Below, one piece after another: positions 1,088 through 31,721 of a stretch of 64,000 bases of DNA. This DNA comes from Eledone cirrhosa (lineage: Eukaryota): positions 256,928,001 to 256,992,000 of the forward strand of contig OZ024740.1 of NCBI GenBank assembly GCA_964016885.1. The letters are read 5' to 3'. The notes beneath the pieces are model-generated. The model was not told where the DNA came from. It did no database searches and saw only the letters and a list, made by a program, of their open reading frames with translations. Within the stretch, counting starts at the first letter, position 1. Every line of letters starts with the position of its first letter. The translations under genes and the position numbers were made by a program.

Positions 1088-1854
1088 TGATGACGAAAGG
1101 CTTCTCTGTACGCTTCTTCGGAAAGTATGTTTATTCCCTTTCAGAAACTAATTAGTTGGGAGTGAAATTTTAGTAAGTAAGTTAATTTTATAATTTTCTT
1201 ATTTTACGTCTGTCATATTATTGTTCTGCAACCCCATGCATTGAACCACAAAGTTACTAAGACAAAACCTATATATTTGCTAGCATAAGTATGCATCTGT
1301 GTATATATATGTTACTAGATATACTAATTCTTTATAATTATCTCCAAATTATTTGTCGAGCAAAAAATTGGCCAAAACTGCTGCTATAGTAACAGTCAGG
1401 CTGCTGTCTTCTTAACAAACCACTTTCCACTGATTGACATCGATGTCACGTGATTGATTCTTTTGAATTTGCCACCGACGCAGTAGGCAGTGATTTTCTC
1501 AATGGCTAGGAATTTAGTCCACGCTTTGCTTTCTTCCATCCACTGAATTATTCTTGTATAAGTTCCCTGTGTCCACGTATTGCCTGGAAACTTAGCTGAG
1601 AATAGACTTCCCTGATGACGAAAGGCTTCTCTGTACGCTTCTTCGGAAAGTATGTTTATTCCCTTTCAGAAACTGATTAGTTGGGAGTGAAATTTTAGTA
1701 AGTAAGTTAATTTTATAATTTTTTTATTTTACGTCTCTCATATTATTGTTCTGCAACCCCATGCATTGAACCACAAAGTTACTAATACAAAACCTATATA
1801 TTTGCTAGCATAAGTATGCATCTGTGTATATATATGTTACTAGATATACTAATT

Positions 1855-1860
<6 letters not shown>
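1088..1860 (+). mobile_element. Family A non-coding unit, ~525-bp period, ~1.5 copies, flanked by (TA)n; atypical HHR-like core
   Basis: TGACGAAAGG occurs at 1091 and 1616. Core at ~1612-1650 is CTGATGA-CGAAAGGC..GCTTCTTCG-GAAA, with stems I and III irregular. Confidence 0.7.
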
Positions 1861-1908
<48 letters not shown>

Positions 1909-1911
<3 letters not shown>

Positions 1912-2944
1912 AGACGTAAAATAAGAAAATTATAAAATTAACTTACTTACTAAAATATCACTTCCAACTAATTAGTTTCTGGAATGGAGTAAATATATTT
2001 TCCGAAGAATAATAAAGAGAAGCATTCCGTCGTCAGGAAAGTCTATTCTCATGTAAGTTTCCAGGCAAAGCGAGGACACTGGAAACTTATTTTAAAATAA
2101 TTCAGTGGATAGGAAATAGCAAAGCGTGGACTGAATTCCAAGCCATTGAGAAAATCACTGCCTCTACGTCTGTGGCAAATTCCAAAAGAATCGAACACGT
2201 GACATCGAGGTCAATCAGTGGAAAGTGGTTTGCTAATAAGACAGCGGCCTGCCTACAACCGTAGCAGCAGTCATGGCCAATATTGCTCGACAAATAATTT
2301 GGAGATAATAATAAAGAATTCATATCTAGTAACATATATATACATACAGATGCATATCAATGCTAGCAAATACATAGGTTTTGTCTTAATAACAGTGTGG
2401 TTCAATGCATGGGGTTACAGAACAATAATATAAGAGACGTAAAATAAGAAAATTATAAAATTAACTTACTTACTAAAATATCACTTCCAACTAATTAGTT
2501 TCTGGAATGGAGTAAATATATTTTCCGAAGAATAATATTGAGAAGCATTCCATCGTCAGGAAAGTCTATTCTCATGTAAGTTTCCAGGCAAAGCGAGGAC
2601 ACTGGAAACTTATTAAAAAATAATTCAGTGGATAGGAAATAGCAAAGCGTGGACTAAATTCCAAGCCATCAAGAAAATCACTGCCTCTACGTCTGTGGCA
2701 AATTCAAAAAGAATCGAACACGTGACATCGAGGTCAATCAGTGGAAAGTGGTTTGCTAATAAGACAGCGGCCTGCCTACAACCGTAGCAGCAGTCATGGC
2801 CAATATTGCTCGACAAATAATTTGGAGATAATAATAAAGAATTCATATCTAGTAACATATATATACATACAGATGCATATCAATGCTAGCAAATATATAG
2901 GTTTTGTCTTAATAACAGTGTGGTTCAATGCATGGGGTTGCAGA
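1909..2944 (-). mobile_element. Diverged family A copy, inverted, ~2 tandem units of 523 bp
   Basis: Near-identical short ORFs at 2102 and 2625 give period 523. The sequence is a diverged reverse complement of 1088-1860, with CTGACGA on the minus strand. Confidence 0.75.
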
Positions 2945-3895: not shown

Positions 3896-3924
<29 letters not shown>

Positions 3925-3925
<1 letters not shown>

Positions 3926-4978
3926 AAGTAATATATATGAGTAATATATATGATGAAACAGATACCAACACATCTGTATTTATATTGCAAAAGAAAGTTA
4001 GCCAGAATGAAGAATATTAATTATTTTACCACAGTTCGTCCACATCGATTTAAAATAATAAATCGACAAAAACTAGCTGCGCTGCCAAATGGCTATGATG
4101 TTTATACATATTTAAATTTCAAAGTCAAACCTGTTCAGTAGATAAGTTTAAACCTCAAAATCCAAACATGTTTCGAGATGAATATAAGTGTAGGAATATC
4201 ATGCCACTGCTCTCCTCAGTAAACATCCAGAGACAATTGATAAGCTTCACTTCTAAATAATTTAAAAGACTGTGTGACGCACATGGGTTCACAGATTAAT
4301 ATTCTTCATTCTGGCTAACTTTCTTTTGCAATATAAATACAGATGTGTTGGTATCTGTTTCATCATATATATTACTCATATATATTACTTTTATACACGG
4401 CTCAGGAATATTTCCTTTTGAGCTAATACCATTGTAAAAGAATTAATTACACTTAATATAACTGCTCTTCGTCGAGCTGAAATTCGCCTCATATATACGA
4501 CTGTTATTTCTAGCAGTACGGTTATGAGACTAGATTGAATCTGTGAACCCATGTGCGTCACACAGTCTTTTAAATTATTTAGAAGTGAAGCTTATCAATT
4601 GTCTCTGGATGTTTACTGAGGAGAGCAGTGGCATGATATTCCTACACTTATATTCATCTCGAAACATGTTTGGATTTTGAGGTTTAAACTTATCTACTGA
4701 ACAGGTTTGACTTTGAAATTTAAATATGTATAAACATCATAGCCATTTGGCAGCGCAGCTAGTTTTTGTCGATTTATTATTTTAAATCGATGTGGACGAA
4801 CTGTGGTAAAATAATTAATATTCTTCATTCTGGCTAACTTTCTTTTGCAATATAAATACAGATGTGTTGGTATCTGTTTCATCATATATATTACTCATAT
4901 ATATTACTTTTATACACGGCTCAGGAATATTTCCTTTTGAGCTAATTCAATTGTAAAAGAATTAATTACACTTAATAT
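3925..4978 (+). mobile_element. Family F unit (519-bp period, ~1.3 copies, 4295-4978) preceded by an inverted copy (3925-4296)
   Basis: Identical 63-aa pseudo-ORFs at 3950(+) and 4885(-). The segment attaatattcttcattc occurs at 4295 and 4814. Confidence 0.8.
4611..4675 (+). ncRNA. Type I hammerhead ribozyme candidate (family F)
   Basis: gttta CTGAGGA GAG..CTC GAAA CATG TT tggat. Palindromic ACATGT stem III, weak G-U-rich stem I. Mirror copy at ~4160-4225 on the minus strand. Confidence 0.5.
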
Positions 4979-5556
<578 letters not shown>

Positions 5557-5738
5557 ACGGAGAAAGCTAATAGCGATACACCGGCCAAATTCCAACTCAC
5601 TCAACAAACATTAGGAAATATCTGAGTATGTTCCTAATTAAACGTTCGGGGTGATAACTATATTGTATTGTGTGGCGAATTGGCTGTATCATCTCATATG
5701 AGATATATCAATATATATATATATGTATATAACAATAT

Positions 5739-5803
<65 letters not shown>

Positions 5804-6324
5804 TAGTTAAAAGAATAGAGGTGTAACACACAAGTTATTATATATTGGAATAGAAAATGCTGACAAATTGTTCACAGTTGAAAAATGGTTTAATTAGGAA
5901 TAAAAGAGTATTAGTGATTGTATGGGTTAGTATTCAGTTGTGGTTTTAAGTTTTTAAGTTTTTACCGGTTGCGCATTTCTAAATGCTTTTCAAAAATAAT
6001 TTTGAGATAGAGTGTCCGTGTTGTTTGCTCTGATCTGATTAGTTTTGGGAATTCTACCTGTTTTTATGTTAAAAAAGTGGCTCCAGCGTTAGTTTTGTGT
6101 TGCAAAAATGCTTGTGGTCAAAACAATTTTGATTGGTCGGTAGAGGTCATGTGAATGTAAAAAGTTGATTTTGCGCCAAGACTGTTTTTATGTTAAAAAA
6201 GTGGCTCCAGCAAAAATTCTTGGTCAAAACAATTTTGATTGGTCGGTAGAAGTCATGTGGATAAAAAATTGGTTTTGCGCCAAGATTGAGAAATGACTCT
6301 TTCACAACAAATATGTGTGTGTGT

Positions 6325-6398
<74 letters not shown>

Positions 6399-6466
6399 AG
6401 TAGTAGTAAGATGTTCGATGCTGCGACAATGGCCAGCAGCGATGTGTGTCAAATGGCTATTAAGAT

Positions 6467-6516
<50 letters not shown>

Positions 6517-7821
6517 ATAGCAGAGTAATTCGATGGTCAGTAAGAAATTTTAGCATGTCAAAAGATATTTTTCTGCTTTTGTCTTATACGGAGAAGTGCG
6601 TGTGTGTGTGTGTGTGTGTGTGTATAAGTCTCTCTGTATGTTGATGTACGCGTGTGTATGTGTTTGTGTATATATGTGTGTGTGTGTGTGTGTGTGTGGG
6701 TGGACCAGTATTTTTTTCCCCCTGGTAAAATGGTGTACATTATTCGATTTTTTTCAGTAAAATCGGTTCTCTTAATAGAACATCAAAAATCTTAACAATA
6801 AAAGGTGTGAAATGATATTCACTATATATATATACACATACATATATTCACTACATATATAAATATATATACATATATACATACATATATATGCACATAT
6901 ATTTTCTTGTATTGCACCATAGAGCATGTGTGTTTACGTGTGTCATTGTGTTTATATGTGGGTAGAGATGTGTGCTGATGTAGGTATGTATGTTGACGTG
7001 TGTATGTTGTGGGTTCGTCTTAGGGAGAAGTGTTTAGACGGGGTCCGTATTTGTTAATGAAGTAAGATTCCTTGCTGATGCGCTGGGTGTGGGTGTCATT
7101 ATCTTTACATTTGTAGAGGGGAAAGATTCTGAAGTTGGGATGATTTTGGGCGGCACAGGTATCAATGTGTTCACTCAGTGGTATTTTCCTGTATTCCCGT
7201 ATTTTAATTTGGGATCTATGAACCGCACAACAACTTCTCAAACCCCCAAGCCTCAAACAAACGAAGAAGGAAGCACCACACCGAAGATGAACTTCCCAAC
7301 CTCGCTACCATAAGAAGGAACAAAAACCCAAGAAATCATCTCCCCCAGAATGACATTTACAACTTTCCCCCTTCAAGGAGACACCATACCAAATCACTCA
7401 ACTACTACGCGGATTCCTCATCGTCAAACATAGGGAAAAGATACCACCGCCATGATAGATGCAACAACTTCCCCGCTTCAAGAGGACAGCAAGGTAATTA
7501 CTATTTTCTCAACTCTCACTTCCACAATACACAACAAACCAACACCACACGATACAACCAACAACGTAGGCCACTTATAACACCACAATACAACATGGCA
7601 CATAGAAACACACACCCATACTCGCAGTACAGGAACACCCCATTCAATCTACAACCACCAACCCGAACCACATTTTACAACAACAAGGAATATAACAAAC
7701 ACAGGAGACCACTTAACATCAGCAGACAAACCCTCTACCCCAACCATTTTTTAGACACAGCACACAGATACAGGCAAACAAAATAACACAAAACAGGGAG
7801 GAGAAACCGATAGTAATAAAT

Positions 7822-10071
7822 ATTATCAATCTTACTAGTGCAGAACCAACACACAACCTTATCAACTTACTCTCCAAAGGTCTTAAATTCACACCGACCC
7901 CACTACGTCCTAACTACTATGAAATGAAGGAAGATATCACAGACTTCTGTAGAAAGTTACGACTTAGTGAACAACTATTCGACCAGTACAATGAGGATGA
8001 ATCATTAGCCAGAAATAGAAGCAATTACACACCTTCAAAAGGTAGAAATAAAATCCTGGACGAATTCTGTGAACACATCACACACTTCCCTTACCAACAC
8101 TTGCACAGACAAAAACACAAGCCAAACCTCAACAAGAAAGAATGGGAAGAATTAAATAGATTAAAAACCGACAGAACCATTACAATTAAAGAGGCTGATA
8201 AAGGGAGTACAGTAGTCCTAATGGAGACAGAATTCTATATCAACTTAGCGCTCTCCACTTTGGAAAACGAAACATACTACGAAAAGGCTGAACACTACAA
8301 TCAACAGAAAATTATGAGAAACCTAAAAACTCTAATCAACCAATACAAAGAAGGACTCACTAACAAGGAATTCAGCTTCATCACAGACTTCACAAGTAAA
8401 TCCAGCCTTTTCTACGGTATCCCTAAAGTACATAAAAGCGAATCAATCAGTAAGGCATGCAAGGAAGCCACAGACATAGTCATCAATGTCCCCTCACCCA
8501 ATGATCTCAAATTAAGACCTATAATAGCAGGCCTCGCTTGTGAAACGCACCGTCTTAGCAACTTCATTGATACCCTTCTCAAACCCTTCCTCAAGCACAT
8601 CAAAAGCTATATAAGGGACGACCTAGATATGCTCAATCACCTCCCTAATATGCCACTTTCTGAACAAACCCTACTAGTGACGTTCGATGTAGTCAACCTA
8701 TACTCCAACATCCCCCACAACCTAGGAATAGAAGCTATCCAATTCTGGCTGGATAATTTCCACAATGAACTCCCACAACGCATCAAAAAAGAATTCGTGA
8801 TAGAGGGACTCAAATTTATCTTGGAGAACAATTACTTCGTTTTCAATAACAAACCCTACAGGCAGAAATCTGGGACCGCTATGGGAACGAAAACAGCCCC
8901 TACTTATGCCAACCTAGTCATGGGATACCTGGAAATCACCCTCTACACTAAAGTCCTAAACAAATTTGGAAACACCCTCCACTTACACATTGAAAGGAAC
9001 TGGAAGCGATATCTAGATGACTGCTTCATCCTTTGGCACGAAAACATCGAAAAACTTAAAGAATTTCACACCCTTATAAATGGGCTCAACACAAATATTA
9101 ACTTCACGATGGAATACAGCCATCAACAACTCCCCTTCCTCGACATCCTCATTAAGATCCATAACAAAAAAATAGAAACAGACATATACTACAAGCCCAC
9201 AGACTCCAAGCAATATCTCCCCTTCAACTCTTGCCACCCTAGACACGTTAAAATTAATATTCCCTACAACTTAGCCAAGAGAATCTGTACTATAGTCTCC
9301 AATAAAAACATCTGCTACTTACGGCTACAAGAACTAAAGGACACACTCATAGGCAGGGACTACCCTGCATCACTAATTGACAATGGAATCCAACGTGCCT
9401 TAAAACTCAGTACCCAGGACCTTAGACACCCTAAAGTAAATCAACCAAAACTAAAAGCTCTTCCATACATCTCCACACACAACCCCCTCAACAATGAGGC
9501 CTTTGACACCATCCTCCAGAACATCCCTGTATTGAAAAAGGACCATAGAATGAACCAAATTTTACGAACACACGATATCATAAAGAGCAAAAGACAATCC
9601 AAGTCAATGTAAAATATCTTAACACATGCCAAAGTACTGCCAACCACAACAACGAAACCTACAGTAAAAAAAGGCGATAGACCCAACTGTGGCATTTGCA
9701 TCAACCTAATAGAGGGTTCGGAATTCTATTTCAAAGATGGACAACGTTTTATAGTAAAACACAATTTCACATGTGCATCGGAAAATCTAATATATGTATT
9801 AACTTGTTCAGGTTGTCGAGAACAATACATAGGCCAGACCAAAAACAGCCTCCGCCAACGCATGACTGTCCATAGATCCCAAATTAAAATACGGGAATAC
9901 AGGAAAATACCACTGAGTGAACACATTGATACCTGTGCCGCCCAAAATCATCCCAACTTCAGAATCTTTCCCCTCTACAAATTTAAAGATAATGCCACCC
10001 ACACCCAGCGCATCAGCAAGGAATCTTACTTCATTAACAAATACGGACCCCGTCTAAACACTTCTCCCTAA
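7822..10071 (+). pseudogene. PLE reverse transcriptase + GIY-YIG endonuclease, one in-frame TAA at 9610-9612
   Basis: Motifs INL..LLSKGLKFTP, ADKG, FYGIPKVHK, LRPII, FDVVNLYSNIP, GTAMG, RYLDD, LPFLD, YYKPT, SCHP. After the stop the same frame gives CGIC, NLIYVLTCSGC..YIGQT..LRQR. Confidence 0.92.
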
Positions 10072-10555
10072 GACGAACCCACAACATACACACGTCAACA
10101 TACATACCTACATCAGCACACATCTCTACCCACATATAAACACAATGACACACGTAAACACACATGCTCTATGGTGCAATACAAGAAAATATATGTGAAT
10201 ATATATGTATGTATATATGTATATATATATATATATGTAGTGAATATATGTATGTGTATATATATATAGTGAATATCATTTCACACCTTTTATTGTTAAG
10301 ATTTTTGATGTTCTATTAAGAGAACCGATTTTACTGAAAAAATCGACTAATGTACACTATTTTACCAGGGGGAAAAAAATACTGGTCCACCCACACACAC
10401 ACACACATATATACACAAACACATACACACGCGTACATCAACATACAAAGAGACTTATACACACACACACACACACGCACTTCTCCGTATAAGACAAAAG
10501 CTGAAAAATATCTTTTGACATGCTAAAATTTCTTACTGACCATCGAATTACTCTG

Positions 10556-10647
<92 letters not shown>

Positions 10648-10742
10648 ATCTTAATAGCCATTTGACACACATCGCTGCTGGCCATTGTCGCAGCATCGAA
10701 CACCTTACTACTGCTACTACACACACACACACACACACATAT

Positions 10743-10858
<116 letters not shown>

Positions 10859-11182
10859 ATACACATATTTGTTGTGAAAGAGTCATTTCTCAATCTTGGC
10901 GCAAAACCAATTTTTTATCCACATGACCTCTACCGACCAATCAAAATTGTTTTGACCAAGAATTTTTGCTGGAGCCACTTTTTTAACATAAAAACAGTCT
11001 TGGCGCAAAATCAACTTTTTACATTCACATGACCTCTACCGACCAATCAAAATTGTTTTGACCACAAGCATTTTTGCAACACAAAAATAACGCTGGAGCC
11101 ACTTTTTTAACATAAAAACAGGTAGAATTCCCAAAACTAATCAGATCAGAGCAAACAGCACGGACACTCTATCTCAAAATTA

Positions 11183-11220
11183 TTTTTGAAAAGCATTTAG
11201 AAATGCGCAACCGGTAAAAA
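11183..11220 (+). ncRNA. Degenerate minimal HHR in the PLE 3' UTR (U3-A8 core, GCAA instead of GAAA)
   Basis: ttt TTGAAAA GCATT-taga-AATGC GCAA CCGG TA aaaa; the same sequence is in the left arm (~5958-5995, minus). Confidence 0.45.
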
Positions 11221-11360
11221 CTTAAAAACTTAAAACCACAACTGAATACTAACCCATACAATCACTAATACTCTTTTATTCCTAATTAAACCATTTTTCA
11301 ACTGTGAACAATTTGTCAGCATTTTCTATTCCGTTTACCAATATACATATATATATAGAG

Positions 11361-12463
<1,103 letters not shown>

Positions 12464-13005: not shown

Positions 13006-13898
13006 CGAGGTGTGTCAGAAAAGTTCCAGGACGGATGTGACAAAAGATTTATTTCAAACCCAAACTTCACACTAAAAGTGTTCTTCTTCAAAGTAATCCC
13101 CCTGGAGTATGTAACTGTAATCATAGCTCTCTGCAGCGATCAAACTTTTTCTTCATAATTTTATATACATGTCCTCTGTTTCAGGTCGTCAAGCAATGAG
13201 CACAGAGCAACCAACAAACTTGAAAACTCCGTCAGAATCACTTGGATTGCTGCAGCAAGTGTATGGAGATGAGACGATGTCACGCTCACGTGTTTTTGAG
13301 TGGTGCACGAGGTTTAAAGAAAGACGCGTGGACGTGGAAGATGACCCCAGGGGCGGAAGGTCCTCAACAACGAGGACTGAGGTCAACGTTGAGCACGTCA
13401 GGCAGATGGTGCGTAGCGATCTTCAGCTGACCGTTCGACTGATGGCAAGTGAGCAGGGCATGAATAGCGGCAGCGTCTGGAAGATTCTCACTGAAGATTT
13501 GGACATGCGGAAAGTCTGCGCGAAGATGGTGCCAAAACTGCTGAACGATGACAAGAAGGGTCGACACATGCTAGTGTGCCAGGACATCCTCGAGCGTCTT
13601 GAAACCGAACCAGACTTGCTAGGGACAATCATCACCTGTGATGAGTCATGGATCTTCGAGTACGACCCGGAGAGGACACGTTTTGAAGACGTGGATGACA
13701 TCAAAAAGGCCGTGACGACAGAACTGCGGAGGATGCCGGAAGAATCCTTCCAGGAGTGCATGCAAGGCTGGTAGAAAAGTATGGAAAGTGCTTTAGACTC
13801 AGGGGGATTACTTTGAAGGAGTAAACTCTTAGTGTGAAATTTGGGTTTGAAATAAATCTTTTGTGACATCAGTCCTCGAACTTTTATGATGCACCTCG
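13006..13898 (+). mobile_element. Internally deleted mariner-like (Tc1/mariner) DNA transposon with ~100-bp TIRs, inserted in (TA)n
   Basis: Ends CGAGGTGTGTCAGAAAAGTT.. and ..AACTTTTATGATGCACCTCG are inverted repeats; transposase fragment inside. Confidence 0.9.
13169..13774 (+). pseudogene. Mariner transposase remnant (HTH region and first catalytic Asp; remaining DD34D core deleted)
   Basis: [29 protein letters not shown] and [14 protein letters not shown], joined directly to C-terminal RFEDVDDIK. Confidence 0.88.
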
Positions 13899-15509: not shown

Positions 15510-16050
<541 letters not shown>

Positions 16051-16055
16051 ATTTA

Positions 16056-16138
<83 letters not shown>

Positions 16139-16139
16139 T

Positions 16140-16720
16140 TATACAAATAAAAGGGAGAGTTAATAACTCATACAGATACTCTGTAATTAACAAGCTCAAA
16201 GTATAAACACTGACCATTTCAATAATATATGTAGTAATAAACACAGTAAATCGTGTGTCTAAAATTACGAGGGTTGAAATACCACATTTGTTTGAGAAAT
16301 TTAATCAGAAGCAAACGGAAAATACAGTATGAGTTATTAACTCATTTGTATTTCGGCTCCCTACTAGGTGAACTTATAAGTTGGGTGTATCAGGCTATTG
16401 TTTCTAGCCAATCCACTCACGCCACTTTTGACTTCTAGCACACGAGGTGAAATATTCATTCGCGTGGATTTGGCTTAGGTGTTTGTTTCAGTTAATCTAT
16501 TCTCTCGCTGATGATGCCCACGGATTATCTGTTACAAACACAATTCTCAGGGCGAAACAGATTAACGCCATAATCTGTCCGGGAGATGTCATAGTTATTG
16601 AGGCAGTCTGTATATATTTTATTTTATTTTATGTATATTCCGATTGCTTCTGATTAAATTTCTCAAACAAATGTGTTATTTCAACCCTCGTAATTTTAGA
16701 CATACGATTTACTGTATACT
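16140..16720 (+). mobile_element. Family G HHR element with inverted arms (16245-16320 / 16638-16714)
   Basis: cagtaaatcg..cagaagc is inverted relative to gcttctg..cgatttactg; flanked by (TA)n. Confidence 0.7.
16501..16586 (+). ncRNA. Canonical type I hammerhead ribozyme
   Basis: TCTCTCG CTGATGA t GCCC..GGGC GAAA CAGATTA-acgcca-TAATCTG TC CGGGAGA. All three stems form, with a GUC site (cleavage after 16579). Confidence 0.88.
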
Positions 16721-16921
16721 ACATATATTATATATATATATTTGAAAAAAAAGGAAAAAAATGACTTCACTGGTAGTGTTAAACATTTTTTTGGATTTAA
16801 TTTTATAATATAATATTATGAGTTGGTAGATCCAGTAAGTTCTTTGTTAACTTCGGTGGGAAGAATTTTAGAGAATCCTGGTTAACTTGGGTTGGAGAAC
16901 TTTCTCGCATTCGTCTGTCTG

Positions 16922-16969
<48 letters not shown>

Positions 16970-20522: not shown

Positions 20523-21654
20523 CTACGACCTGAACGGGTCGTGGTCTTGTAACGTGGCGATGGTGGTGGTGTAGGTTACAGGCGATGATGGTGGTTCAGG
20601 AACAGTCGTTCGCTCAACAGGCAAATACGAAGGGGTTCGTGGATCAGGAACCACAGCGTCCGTGTCAAGGTGCGCCTGCTTATGCCTGTCTAATGTAACT
20701 GTCTCCCTGGACCCCTTAATATCTAACGTGAAATGCTTAGCCGAGCGCGCTAAGACACGGTAAGGTCCAGTGTAAGGCTGTGTGAGCGGGGGCTTCACCG
20801 TATCATTCCTTACAAAGACATGCGTCCACGAGGCAATATCCCTCGGGACAGCAGTAATTTCACGTTCCTGCGTCGCTTTTCCAAGCAGCAATTTCACCCC
20901 TCATATTTGGCCAGAAAAATCTAGCTGATATGAGCTTTGCTGTGGCAGAAGATCCTGGATGCGAGATACAATGTAATCCCAGAAACACGGTCCGACGATG
21001 ATTCTCTGGAACGAAGGACCTAGGCACGTCCAAAGAGACGTCGCAGAGAATTTGGCCAACTGCAGTCGACAGAGGCAAGTATTTCATCTCGCAATTCGCA
21101 AACTCAGGCGATGTGACATCCAATGACTCAAGGGGAGGCTGATCCGCAGCCAAACGAGTCAGATCTATGACAGAGGATGACGAGATCGCTGTCACGGGTA
21201 AGCGGGACAAAGCATCGGCCGCTGTATTTAGTGAACCCGGAATGTGCTGGATATCACTCGTATATTGCGAGATGAAATCAAGGTGTCTCGTCTCTCTGGG
21301 CGAGTATTTATCAGCCTTCGCTCTCAAAGCAAAAGTCAATGGTTTATGGTCAGTGATGATAGTAAATTGTCTACCCTCTAGCACATGTGAAAAATGTTTC
21401 ACGACCAAATAGATGGCTAAAAGCTCTCTTCCAAAGGTGCTGTAGCGCGTCTCAGCAGGATTTAGCTTTTTGGAAAAAAACTCCAGCGGTTGCTGGTGAC
21501 CATTGATGTTTTGGTGTAGTACTGCGCCCACAGCGATATCCGATGCATCAACACAAAGCGTTAGCTTTGCACCGGGTACCGGGTGAGTCAGTAACGAAGC
21601 ATTAGCCAAAACAGTTTTGGCGTGCTGAAAATCAGCAAGTTGAGTGTCTGTCAA
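20523..21654 (-). pseudogene. Gypsy RNase H + integrase N-terminus fused to integrase C-terminus (DDE core deleted)
   Basis: VDASDIAVGAVL, YSTFGRELLAIY, TDHKPL, ADALSR, LHCISHPG, FFWPNM, then PPLTQPYTGPYRV (GPY/F motif). Confidence 0.88.
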
Positions 21655-23029
21655 AGAAATATCTTTGTTCTAGCCTCCGACAATTTTTCAAAATTTCCGT
21701 CAGGGAGAAAAGCAATTTTGCACAATTTGGCACGAAACGCCTATAAAAGTTAACCAGACCTAAGAACTGGCGTAACTGACGTAGTGAGGTCGGTGGAGGC
21801 AAATCCTCTATGACCTTAACTCGCTCAGGCCGGGGTCGAATACCGTCAGCATCGATGACGTGACCCAAGAAAGTCAGTGACTCAGCGCCAAAAACACATT
21901 TGGGTGCATTAAGCTGCACGTTATACGCCTTCAATCGGCGGAAAAGACGATTCAAATGGTGCGTATGCTGCTCTGGAGAAGAACTAGCAATGAGCAGATC
22001 GTCAATATAGGTATAGACGAAATCGAGGCCGCGAGTAACCTCATCCATAAACCGCTGAAAAGTACTAGCGGCATTCCTTAATCCGAACGGCATAGTCAAA
22101 AACTCGAAAGATCCAAATGGCGTAACTATAGCCGTTTTTGGAATGTCATTTTTATGGACAGGAATTTGATGGTACGCACGAATTAAATCTAGTTTGAAGA
22201 ATATCTTGCATCCCTGCAGCGAAGACGCAAAGTCTTGCAGATGAGGGATAGGATAACGGTCCGGTACCGTTATCGAATTCAGGCGTCGATAATCTCCAGT
22301 AGATCTCCAATCGCCATTCGCTTTCGGTACCATGTGTAATGGGGACGCCCACGGGCTCGTGGACGGACGAATAATCCCCATTTGCAGCATATGATCAAAC
22401 TCTGATCGTGCTGCTTTGAGTTTGTCCGGAGGCAAGCGACGAGGACGAGAGAAAACGGGAGCACCAGTTGTCGATATGAAGTGCTCCGTGGTATGAGTTG
22501 GTTCATCAAATCGAAAATTTCCCCGAGTCAGTTGCGGGAACGAGTTCAACAACGCATGGAAAGGATCACCGGTGTTAGCAAGAAAAAATGTCGGGCTAAC
22601 CGTTGGAACTCCTGCTGCCTTGCCAACAACAGTTAATCCCGTGATGCCATCAATTAGGCGTTTACCACGAAGGTCCACCGTCAATGAAAAATGGTGGAGA
22701 AAATCCGCGCCTAGAATCGGATACGGCAAGGCAGCGACAGTAAATATCCATTTAAAATCGCGCCACAGATTACGAAACTGCAAAGGTAACGAGATTTGTC
22801 CGAAAGTTCGAATCGGCGAACAATTTACTGCCTGCAACTCAATAGGCGTCTCAGGGGGAGTCTCCTTCATACAACACACAGGCCATACGGAACAAGCTGC
22901 ACCTGTGTCAACCAGAAAAGCTCTACCTGACAGCAGGTCCTCAATGAAAAAGTGACGGTTAGATGTTGTTTCGCAGAGCGCACTATCCGCCGTTAGTGAC
23001 TCTGGTCGTCTTTTCCCTCGTAAGCACAA
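21632..23029 (-). CDS. pol: Gypsy pol: aspartic protease + reverse transcriptase (frameshifted before RNase H)
   Basis: [64 protein letters not shown]. Confidence 0.92.
22974..23017 (-). promoter_or_regulatory. Predicted -1 programmed ribosomal frameshift signal at the gag/pol overlap
   Basis: G GGA AAA in the gag frame (23017-23011), a 6-nt spacer, then hairpin CAGAG-T-CACTA..TAGTG-CG-CTCTG. pol is in the -1 frame. Confidence 0.65.
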
Positions 23030-28118: not shown

Positions 28119-28748
28119 TGACGAGAGTTTTTCTTTGCAATGGATGCCGTAAGGACTGTCCATTTATTTTTGAAACTCGAAACCGATTCGGTAAAGGTAA
28201 CCATAGTGAGAAAAGTTAATTTTTAAAAATTTATTTTGAAACATTTTCTTATTTGCTAAACCTTGATTATATATGTTCTGGTTCGTTAATTTATTAACCT
28301 GCCATTGAACCACATTGGCATATGGTTGGACAATACATGTGTCCCTATGCGCTTTGTGCGTGTAGGGATATATACTTTATTATTATTCTCCTCTTGGTCG
28401 AGAAAAAAATTTGGTCGTTCTGACTGCTGCTAGTTATAGTGGTGGTAGACTGACCTCCCTGCCTTTGCTTCTATCTTTACACACGGCACTTGAAGGAATT
28501 GCTCCCACATCATTTATTCTCATCTCGGGAACAATTTTGAATAGCCCAATTCGTAATTTGAACTCGGGAATTTTATATTCTCCGAGAGAAAAGATCCTTC
28601 TGACGAGAGTTTTTCTTTGCACTGGATGCCGTAAGGACTGTCCATTTATTTTTGAAACTCGAAACCGATTCGGTAAAGGTAACCATAGTGAGTAAAGTTA
28701 ATTTAAAAAAAATTTATTTTGAAACTTTTTCTTATTTGCTAAACCTTG

Positions 28749-28752
<4 letters not shown>
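28119..28752 (+). mobile_element. Family I unit, 482-bp period, ~1.3 copies, flanked by (TA)n
   Basis: TGACGAGAGTTTTTC occurs at 28119 and 28601. Confidence 0.8.
28596..28679 (+). ncRNA. Canonical type I hammerhead ribozyme (family I)
   Basis: CCTT CTGACGA GAGTTTT..GAAACTC GAAA CCGATTCGG TA AAGG. GUA site, cleavage after 28675. Confidence 0.82.
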
Positions 28753-28799
<47 letters not shown>

Positions 28800-30418: not shown

Positions 30419-31646
30419 GTAAGTATGCATGTATACGTACATACATATATGTATACAGACGTACAGTAGCATGCACATATATATATATATACATATATAT
30501 ATACATATGCATACAGGTACACATACATATATGCACGTATCAGTTTAGCGGCGCTAACGTCGCTTTGTTCGTTTGTAAACAAACTGAACAGCCTGAATTT
30601 ATGCCATACTGTACGTCTGTATACATATATGTATGTACGTATACATGCATACTTACATTTAAGTAAGTGCCATACTAAGAGTGAGAAATGAAATTTCGTT
30701 TTCATTTTGTTTCAATTTATCGTTTTCGGTATGCCTGACCGATTTAACTCACTCAATATGCAAATTAGGCTGCTCAGCCGTTAATTTTCATAAGGAAAGT
30801 ATATACTTTCGAACGTTCAACTATCTGGCAGATGGGTAAACGGTGATGATGATAGCTAACAAGCTTGAAACTAGTACATCGTTCCTGTGTCAGTGTTGAA
30901 CAAAAAGGTGACGTGGTTGCCTTAACACCGTATGGCATAAATTCAGGCTGTTCAGTTTGTTTACAAACGAACAAAGCGACGTTAGCGCCGCTAAACTGAT
31001 ACGTGCATATATGTATGTGTACCTGTATGCATATGTATATATATATGTATATATATATATATATGTGCATGCTACTGTACGTCTGTATACATATATGTAT
31101 GTACGTATACATGCATACTTACATTTAAGTAAGTGCCATACTAAGAGTGAGAAATGAAATTTCGTTTTCATTTTGTTTCAATTTATCGTTTTCGGTATGC
31201 CTGACCGATTTAACTCACTCAATATGCAAATTAGGCTGCTCAGCCGTTAATTTTCATAAGGAAAGTATATACTTTCGAACGTTCAACTATCTGGCAGATG
31301 GGTAAACGGTGCCGATGATAGCTAACAAGCTTGAAACTAGTACATCGTTCCTGTGTCAGTGTTGAACAAAAAGGTGACGTGGTTGCCTTAACACCGTATG
31401 GCATAAATTCAGGCTGTTCAGTTTGTTTACAAACGAACAAAGCGACGTTAGCGCCGCTAAACTGATACGTGCATATATGTATGTGTACCTGTATGCATAT
31501 GTATATATATATGTATATATATATATATATGTGCATGCTACTGTACGTCTGTATACATATATGTATGTACGTATACATGCATACTTACATTTAAGTAAGT
31601 GCCATACTAAGAGTGAGAAATGAAATTTCGTTTTCATTTTGTTTCA

Positions 31647-31650
<4 letters not shown>
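30415..31650 (+). mobile_element. Family D array: ~2.2 tandem 466-bp units (30607-31650) preceded by an inverted piece; HHR motifs at 30841-30881 and 31307-31347
   Basis: Duplicated pseudo-ORFs at offset 466; cggtg NNGATGA TAGCT-aaca-AGCTT GAAA CTAG TA catcg. Confidence 0.85.

Positions 31651-31721
<71 letters not shown>

What the first reader, a model, noticed from the sequence alone, without database searches (positions are those of the whole stretch)
16493..16600. Textbook full-length HHR with a built-in alternative fold
Unlike the minimal motifs, this one has a 7-bp stem I (extendable past a TGTC bulge), an 8-bp stem III and a GUC site. Loop II contains ACGGATTAT, able to pair with the 3' strand of stem III, and ATCTGTT, able to pair with the 5' strand and part of GAAA. 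A competing inactive conformation could therefore gate cleavage. It is the best single candidate for a biochemical test.
Basis: partly seen in the sequence, partly recalled or inferred. Interest (0 to 1): 0.7.

Follow-up and report, generated by a model that had tools for sequence, protein, structure and literature searches.

The report
Retrozyme hammerhead with long flanking helix
This is a hammerhead-type RNA motif, predicted to cut itself, in a small protein-free jumping repeat of an animal genome; the switch first proposed is predicted not to form, but its large loop matches the sequence just upstream over 17 base pairs, a conserved helix that likely braces the ribozyme and could instead hold it shut.

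Summary
The type I hammerhead is there as described, with an intact core and a predicted cut after C16579. It is not textbook: it has an extra base after A9 and a 30-nt loop II, and Rfam misses it. The proposed loop II:stem III fold exists on paper, but is 4.5-6.3 kcal/mol above the active fold and at most 0.1% of every ensemble. Both strands are nearly invariant among copies (2 of 26 positions vary, against 16 of 25 in linkers), and the helix uses no core or stem base. The motif lies in a non-coding repeat with an inferred head-to-tail unit of about 461 nt, inserted in (TA)n with an inverted arm: a Penelope-mobilised retrozyme. Best reading: an unusually long pseudoknot bracing stems I and II (about 50%). 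Rival: a lock keeping the RNA uncut (about 30%). No linked covariation, cleavage or expression was shown. The scan had already noted such retrozymes in this genome and loop II pseudoknots in other genomes.

The parts
16048..16143 (.). (TA)n microsatellite at the left end of the insertion (likely target)
16141..16326 (-). Inverted arm. 16326-16222 is a 90% copy of 16632-16731; it continues through a further 73-nt part of the unit (16221-16149) and 8 nt into the start of the next unit
   Evidence: a contig of X2 joins 16149 (minus) to 16344 (plus)
16327..16343 (+). 17-nt piece of the unit's end at the inversion junction (inverted copy of 16157-16173), followed by an 8-nt gap relative to the minus arm
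   Evidence: a contig of X1 has 8 letters inserted behind 16343, and another spans 16291-16420 with no difference
16344..16731 (+). Direct arm: body of the non-coding repeat unit (inferred unit about 461 nt) carrying the hammerhead
16479..16498 (+). Upstream strand U of the long helix: 8-bp part 16479-16486, 3-bp part 16489-16491, 6-bp part 16493-16498
16501..16507 (+). Stem I, 5' strand (8 bp in most copies through T16500A)
16508..16515 (+). Core C3-A9 (CUGAUGA) plus one extra U before G10.1
   Evidence: the extra base is listed as a trait of Penelope hammerheads in PMC4209133
16516..16553 (+). Stem II (4 bp) and 30-nt loop II. 16522-16541 is strand L of the long helix; 16542-16549 is a linker of 5 to 10 nt among copies
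16554..16579 (+). G12-A13-A14, 8-bp stem III hairpin with variable loop, and C17 (predicted cut between 16579 and 16580)
16580..16586 (+). Stem I, 3' strand
16732..16742 (.). Short TA run at the right end of the insertion

Best explanation
This is a type I hammerhead motif in a non-coding repeat with an inferred unit of about 461 nt, likely a retrozyme copied by a Penelope-like enzyme, and its large loop II likely pairs with the flank just upstream of stem I as a long pseudoknot that braces the active fold. Shown in sequence and reads: the core and three stems, the 17-pair complementarity, its conservation among copies, the head-to-tail junction, the inverted arm and the TA flanks. Inferred: during transcription the upstream strand and loop II pair first as a hairpin. 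Its 23-nt loop then pairs with the later strands to make stems II and I, which holds the two stems side by side, the job done by loop-loop contacts in ordinary animal hammerheads. With a stable 8-bp stem III the ribozyme would cut as a monomer after C16579, release unit-length RNA from tandem transcripts and possibly ligate it to a circle. A Penelope-like reverse transcriptase and endonuclease supplied in trans would insert it into (TA)n. The loop II:stem III match is then a by-product of the same 5-base motif being used in both helices.
For: The helix overlaps no core or stem I-III base, and ends 2 nt from stem I and 2 nt from stem II, where tertiary contacts form. Pseudoknots between stems I and II are predicted for about 40% of hammerheads and are needed for fast cleavage; a human example lost activity without its 5-bp pseudoknot (PMC3088659, passages). 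Duplex of -21.1 kcal/mol: reached by 0 of 1000 shuffles of either strand, and the strongest of 7 window hammerheads tested. Among copies 2 of 26 positions of the two outer helix parts vary at 10% or more, both keeping a G-U pair, against 16 of 25 linker and loop positions (Fisher p = 2.8e-5), while the core (0 of 13) and stems (2 of 36) are kept as well. Clipped reads show the same upstream motifs at the same spacing. The 8-nt linker can just span the helix, and the 5-nt variant can if 2 end pairs fray (helix dimensions recalled). Retrozyme context. The longest stop-free frame in a doubled unit is 73 codons.
Against: No cleavage, probing or expression data. No linked compensatory change was shown: the read tables give single positions, and both strands are simply conserved. 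Energy does not decide: the knotted form beats the nested, ribozyme-off form only if the knot costs less than about 11 kcal/mol, which lies inside the range I recall for such penalties. In all nested predictions that include the whole upstream strand, stems I and II fall to 0-58%. A 3-nt linker deletion in 60 of 119, 51 of 96 and 26 of 85 raw reads makes the full helix too long to coexist unfrayed. 66 of 3593 window positions with the same geometry also reach -21.1 (1.8%). Of 6 other window hammerheads only 1 shows an own-flank excess (p about 0.01), and its loop pairs almost as well with another family's flank. The conservation tally counts only reads laid at 80% identity or more, leaves out clipped reads, has thin depth on the upstream strand, and RAD reads come from few loci. 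This locus has one hammerhead, not two tandem ones.
Confidence: 0.5

Rival explanations
1. The upstream:loop II helix is a lock. It forms before stem II can, keeps the ribozyme off in the circle or reverse-transcription template, and a protein (for example the Penelope enzyme) has to open it.
For: It is the minimum-energy fold from about 16538 onward in growing transcripts and has 95-100% probability in the inferred unit, linear or circular. The nested active fold is 6.4 kcal/mol higher on 16474-16600 but only 0.8 higher on 16440-16610 at 37 C. The insertion itself was copied through an intact cut site. Plant retrozymes are predicted to block their hammerhead with a complementary strand (PMC4918200). 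The Anolis Penelope hammerhead cleaved only with protein, and uncut RNA was the main template (PMC11167929).
Against: The helix sequesters no core or stem base, unlike the plant case, where most of the motif is paired. The strand is upstream in multimer and circle alike, so by itself it cannot tell them apart. The folding program cannot form pseudoknots, so its 'off' prediction is built in.
Confidence: 0.3
2. One reading: loop II invades stem III and gates cleavage.
For: 9- and 7-pair matches, beyond shuffles. Common variants at 16520-16522 keep the pairing. The upstream strand also matches the 5' strand of stem III in 10 of 11 positions, so four interchangeable strands exist.
Against: At most 0.1% populated in all 27 runs; stem III is 94-99% formed in all of them. 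It is 11-13 kcal/mol above the best fold on 16474-16600 at 37 C. The three variants are all transitions, which keep these pairs by default. A 1-nt deletion at 16521 (18 of 99, 13 of 66, 10 of 76 reads) shortens the match.
Confidence: 0.07
3. The helix has nothing to do with catalysis. It is a structure of the cleaved or circular RNA (recognition by the enzyme, protection), or a neutral relic of a local inversion in an inversion-prone element.
For: The window is rich in palindromes and inverted arms. The background rate for such a duplex is 1.8%. The helix persists in the cleaved monomer fold.
Against: Both strands are as conserved as the ribozyme stems while neighbouring bases drift, which argues against a neutral relic. 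The ends of the helix abut stems I and II.
Confidence: 0.13

Closest known systems
Animal non-LTR retrozymes (PMC7229834, passages; 10.64898/2026.07.22.740005, part 1 of 5 and passages)
   Same: Type I hammerhead, non-coding low-GC unit (36%), head-to-tail junction, many dispersed copies, Penelope-like elements in the same genome.
   Different: Unit about 461 nt (about 150-400 nt cited in PMC4918200). Stem III of 8 bp instead of 1-2 bp. 30-nt loop II pairing with the flank. Most published animal circles are predicted to leave the hammerhead free to fold (some mussel ones excepted), whereas this unit is not in nested predictions. Only one hammerhead at this locus.
Hammerheads of Penelope-like elements (PMC4209133, parts 1-2 of 4; PMC11167929, parts 1-2 of 4; PMC8557442, passages)
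   Same: Extra base between A9 and G10.1, G10.1-C11.1 pair, inverted truncated arm, (TA)n target, insertion ends downstream of the cut site.
   Different: Animal ones are minimal with absent or palindromic helix III. A large helix III was described there for fungal and protist elements, with no recognisable tertiary contact. No ORF in this unit.
Pseudoknot hammerheads (PMC3088659, passages; figures not seen)
   Same: Watson-Crick pairing between the stem II loop and the stem I side in place of loop-loop contacts, reported for all three types.
   Different: The tested examples in the passages read have 5-6 bp; here 17 pairs over 20 nt. I found no such long helix in searches.
Plant LTR retrozymes and viroids with self-blocked hammerheads (PMC4918200, passages)
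   Same: A complementary strand of the same RNA is predicted to stop the hammerhead fold.
   Different: There the type III motif itself is mostly paired; here only loop II is.
Type-SGC non-circularly permuted hammerheads (PMC10085705, passages)
   Same: Hammerhead core with an extra helix joining stems I and II.
   Different: This motif has the ordinary C-G-S (type I) order.

Membership tests
Type I hammerhead ribozyme | Core CUGANGA, GAA, A15.1-U16.1, G10.1-C11.1, NUH site | tested here: met
   0 of 13 core positions vary among copies
Type I hammerhead ribozyme | Stems I-III in C-G-S order, stem I open | tested here: met
   minimum-energy fold of 16493-16600; 78-98% of samples without the upstream strand
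Type I hammerhead ribozyme | Match to an Rfam hammerhead model | tested here: not met
   likely because of the 30-nt loop II (inference)
Type I hammerhead ribozyme | Self-cleavage at the predicted site | not testable with these tools
   needs an in vitro assay or RNA end data
Animal non-LTR retrozyme | Head-to-tail non-coding unit of a few hundred nt with one type I hammerhead | tested here: met
   junction; inferred 461 nt; longest stop-free frame 73 codons
Animal non-LTR retrozyme | [quoted passage not shown] | tested here: not met
   one core in 16140-16930; other loci of the family could not be read because no genome is held
Animal non-LTR retrozyme | Unit-length linear and circular RNA in tissues | not testable with these tools
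   no RNA run available to lay
Penelope-like element (autonomous) | RT plus GIY-YIG ORF within the element | tested here: not met
   Such an ORF lies at 7924-10068 but shares no blastn match with 16144-16930
Penelope-mobilised insertion | Inverted truncated arm, one arm longer, microsatellite target | tested here: met
   One contig of X3 shows the same arm joined to 16469 at another breakpoint. Described in PMC8557442
Minimal Penelope hammerhead | Absent or short palindromic helix III | tested here: not met
   8-bp stem III, kept among copies
Pseudoknot hammerhead | Four or more pairs between loop II and the stem I side, outside the core | tested here: met
Pseudoknot hammerhead | Covariation in the pseudoknot helix | tested here: inconclusive
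   two wobble-keeping changes; one clipped end has C at 16486 that would pair with the G16534 variant, linkage not shown
Pseudoknot hammerhead | Rate depends on the pseudoknot | not testable with these tools
   needs disruption and rescue mutants
Type-SGC hammerhead | Non-circular order of blocks | tested here: not met
   order is C-G-S

The most novel reading that the evidence does not exclude
An animal retrozyme carries a selected, built-in gate: a 17-pair helix that folds before the ribozyme, keeps the circle or reverse-transcription template uncut, and is opened or converted into the active pseudoknot by the Penelope protein. It would be a natural answer to how animal retrozyme circles and Penelope templates escape their own hammerhead.
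Probability: 0.3. Interest if true: 0.7.

Novelty: new variant of a known kind. Interest (0 to 1): 0.45.

Why it matters
How animal retrozyme circles avoid being cut by their own hammerhead is stated as open in PMC7229834, and a Penelope hammerhead was found to need protein (PMC11167929). This motif gives a short construct in which one truncation series tells a brace from a lock. If it is a brace, it extends the known size of hammerhead pseudoknots and shows a build that Rfam misses.

Tried and rejected
Rfam: no hit. No whole genome is held, so full copies could not be aligned and covariation stays open. No second copy of this family in the window. The metagenome scan with a core pattern gave 1 locus, L001, a hammerhead-like motif with no flank likeness by eye, rejected as a relative. 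A 10-letter motif of the junction had 0 hits in the 584,131 characters of the PMC8557442 supplement, so no link to published Naiad or Hydra consensus sequences was found by that one exact search. Run search: no RNA holder listed. Scan notes near the window and by sequence: none; a word search for a blocking helix: none. Loop II:stem III folds and the swap of the upstream strand onto stem III: not populated. Bulge-spanning stem I extension: not conserved (3 of 8 positions vary), and it would compete with the long helix for 16497-16498. Cross-family test of the long helix: 2 of 7 hammerheads show an own-flank excess, 5 do not. An earlier, cruder test on 16 of 17 candidates gave p below 0.05 for 2. 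The inferred circle is not unusually stable (z = -1.66 against 60 shuffles). Summed contig depth was not used as a copy number.

Full report
Setting. The window is AT-rich DNA full of TA, CA and CT microsatellites and transposon remains, which points to an animal genome (inference; earlier scan notes call it octopus-like, which I did not test). A reverse transcriptase at 7924-9612 followed by a GIY-YIG domain at 9613-10068 marks a Penelope-like element. A scan for CTGANGA...GAAA listed 21 candidate rows at 18 places. No whole genome was available.

The observation. The motif differs from the usual animal type I hammerhead in an extra U after A9, an 8-bp stem III and a 30-nt loop II. Rfam finds nothing. 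The two loop II matches to stem III are real and above shuffles (0.43% and 4.5% of 3000).

The proposed switch. In 9 sequence contexts at 3 temperatures, the loop II:stem III folds were at most 0.1% of 2000 samples, and stem III stayed 94-99% formed. Forced folds lay 4.5 and 6.3 kcal/mol above the active one at 37 C. They were not the best fold in any prefix examined. Against my reading: the complementarity is retained in copies, as all three common changes at 16520-16522 still pair with stem III. These are transitions at A, C and a wobble G, which keep pairing by default, and a 1-nt deletion at 16521 is also common.

What lies just outside the coordinates. 16479-16498 pairs with 16522-16541 in three parts of 8, 3 and 6 pairs, separated by symmetric pyrimidine mismatches. 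The duplex scores -21.1 kcal/mol. One of 3000 loop shuffles reached this and 0 of 1000 for either strand, but 66 of 3593 real window positions of the same geometry did, so the sequence alone gives about p = 0.02. The helix uses no base of the core or of stems I-III and stops 2 nt from stem I and 2 nt from stem II. When the whole strand is included, nested folding replaces stems I and II by it.

Copies. Three contig sets of one sample and three RAD runs of the same species label were laid. On 16462-16606, 118 contigs and 216, 200 and 244 reads were laid. Positions with another letter or an indel in 10% or more: core 0 of 13, stem I 0 of 14, stem II 1 of 8, stem III 1 of 14, outer parts of the long helix 2 of 26 (both keep G-U), its middle 3 of 12, linkers and loops 16 of 25 (Fisher p = 2.8e-5 for helix against linkers). 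Clipped read ends, which the tally omits, show the same upstream motifs, different stem III loops and a stem I change from U-G to U-A. The linker after the helix is 5, 8 or 10 nt. Limits: reads had to be 80% alike, depth on the upstream strand is thin (3-26 reads per direction), RAD reads come from about 20 start places or fewer, and no haplotypes are given, so covariation is not shown.

The element. 16222-16326 is a 90% inverted copy of 16632-16731. The minus arm runs on to 16141, and its last 33 nt match 16327-16351 on the plus strand except for an 8-nt gap. Public contigs join 16149 (minus) to 16344 (plus) and fill that gap. The unit is therefore head-to-tail, about 461 nt, without a long frame, and sits between TA runs. 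Other hammerhead-bearing repeats in the window have offsets of 525, 519 and about 483 nt. This matches animal non-LTR retrozymes (PMC7229834, passages; 10.64898/2026.07.22.740005, part 1 of 5 and passages) inserted in the Penelope manner (PMC8557442, passages). I reached the unit; earlier scan notes describe the same kind of element elsewhere in this genome.

Mechanism. Brace: pseudoknots between stems I and II are common and rate-critical (PMC3088659, passages), and here the helix is placed like one and forms first. The linker can reach (53 A needed, about 57 A available with 8 nt; the 5-nt form needs 2 frayed pairs; dimensions recalled). Lock: plant retrozymes are predicted to block their hammerhead (PMC4918200, passages), a lizard Penelope hammerhead needs protein and uncut RNA is the main template (PMC11167929, parts 1-2 of 4), and this insertion was copied through an intact site. 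Energy cannot choose: break-even is a knot penalty of about 11 kcal/mol, and only with all three parts formed.

Novelty. Retrozymes, Penelope hammerheads and short hammerhead pseudoknots are known. A 17-pair loop II helix with an 8-bp stem III in an animal retrozyme was not found in six literature searches (listings and the passages named). The library lacks most subscription papers, figures were not visible, and the supplements of PMC4209133, PMC3088659, PMC7229834 and the preprint were not seen and may hold such motifs. Verdict: new variant of a known kind, interest 0.45.

Noticed in passing
window 5711-11470: Penelope-like element with long inverted arms, RT at 7924-9612 and GIY-YIG at 9613-10068 in the same frame after a stop; no [C/T]TGANGA core in the left arm 5711-7230.
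   Followed up: partly
window 1088-2944, 3921-4979, 28119-28757: Other hammerhead-bearing repeats with offsets of 523-525, 519 and about 483 nt; the first two are two-armed.
   Followed up: partly
window 4616 (+), 3704 (+), 26875 (+): Minimal hammerheads with palindromic helix III whose upstream flanks resemble each other and can pair with their stem II loops. The 4616 motif has a three-part upstream helix and an 8-nt linker like this finding (p about 0.01).
   Followed up: partly
window 16493-16497, 16523-16527, 16560-16564, 16571-16575: The same 5-base motif and its complement occur in both the long helix and stem III, all conserved among copies; origin unexplained.
   Followed up: partly
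window 30607-31652: 466-nt tandem repeat, 99% identical, with no [C/T]TGANGA core on either strand; could hold a variant or rearranged ribozyme.
   Followed up: no
window 19095 (+) and 27332 (-): CTGATGA cores inside inverted repeats that were not paired with a nearby GAAA; candidates for oversized or rearranged hammerheads.
   Followed up: no
window 16729-16914: A separate, much more abundant repeat right next to the insertion (highest depth).
   Followed up: no
window 20860-23029 (-) and 13169-13774 (+): LTR-retrotransposon-like RT, RNase H and integrase zinc-finger frames; a mariner-like transposase fragment.
   Followed up: no
L001:581-645: Unrelated hammerhead-like motif upstream of a ribosome-binding-like site and ATG in a metagenome contig.
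   Followed up: no
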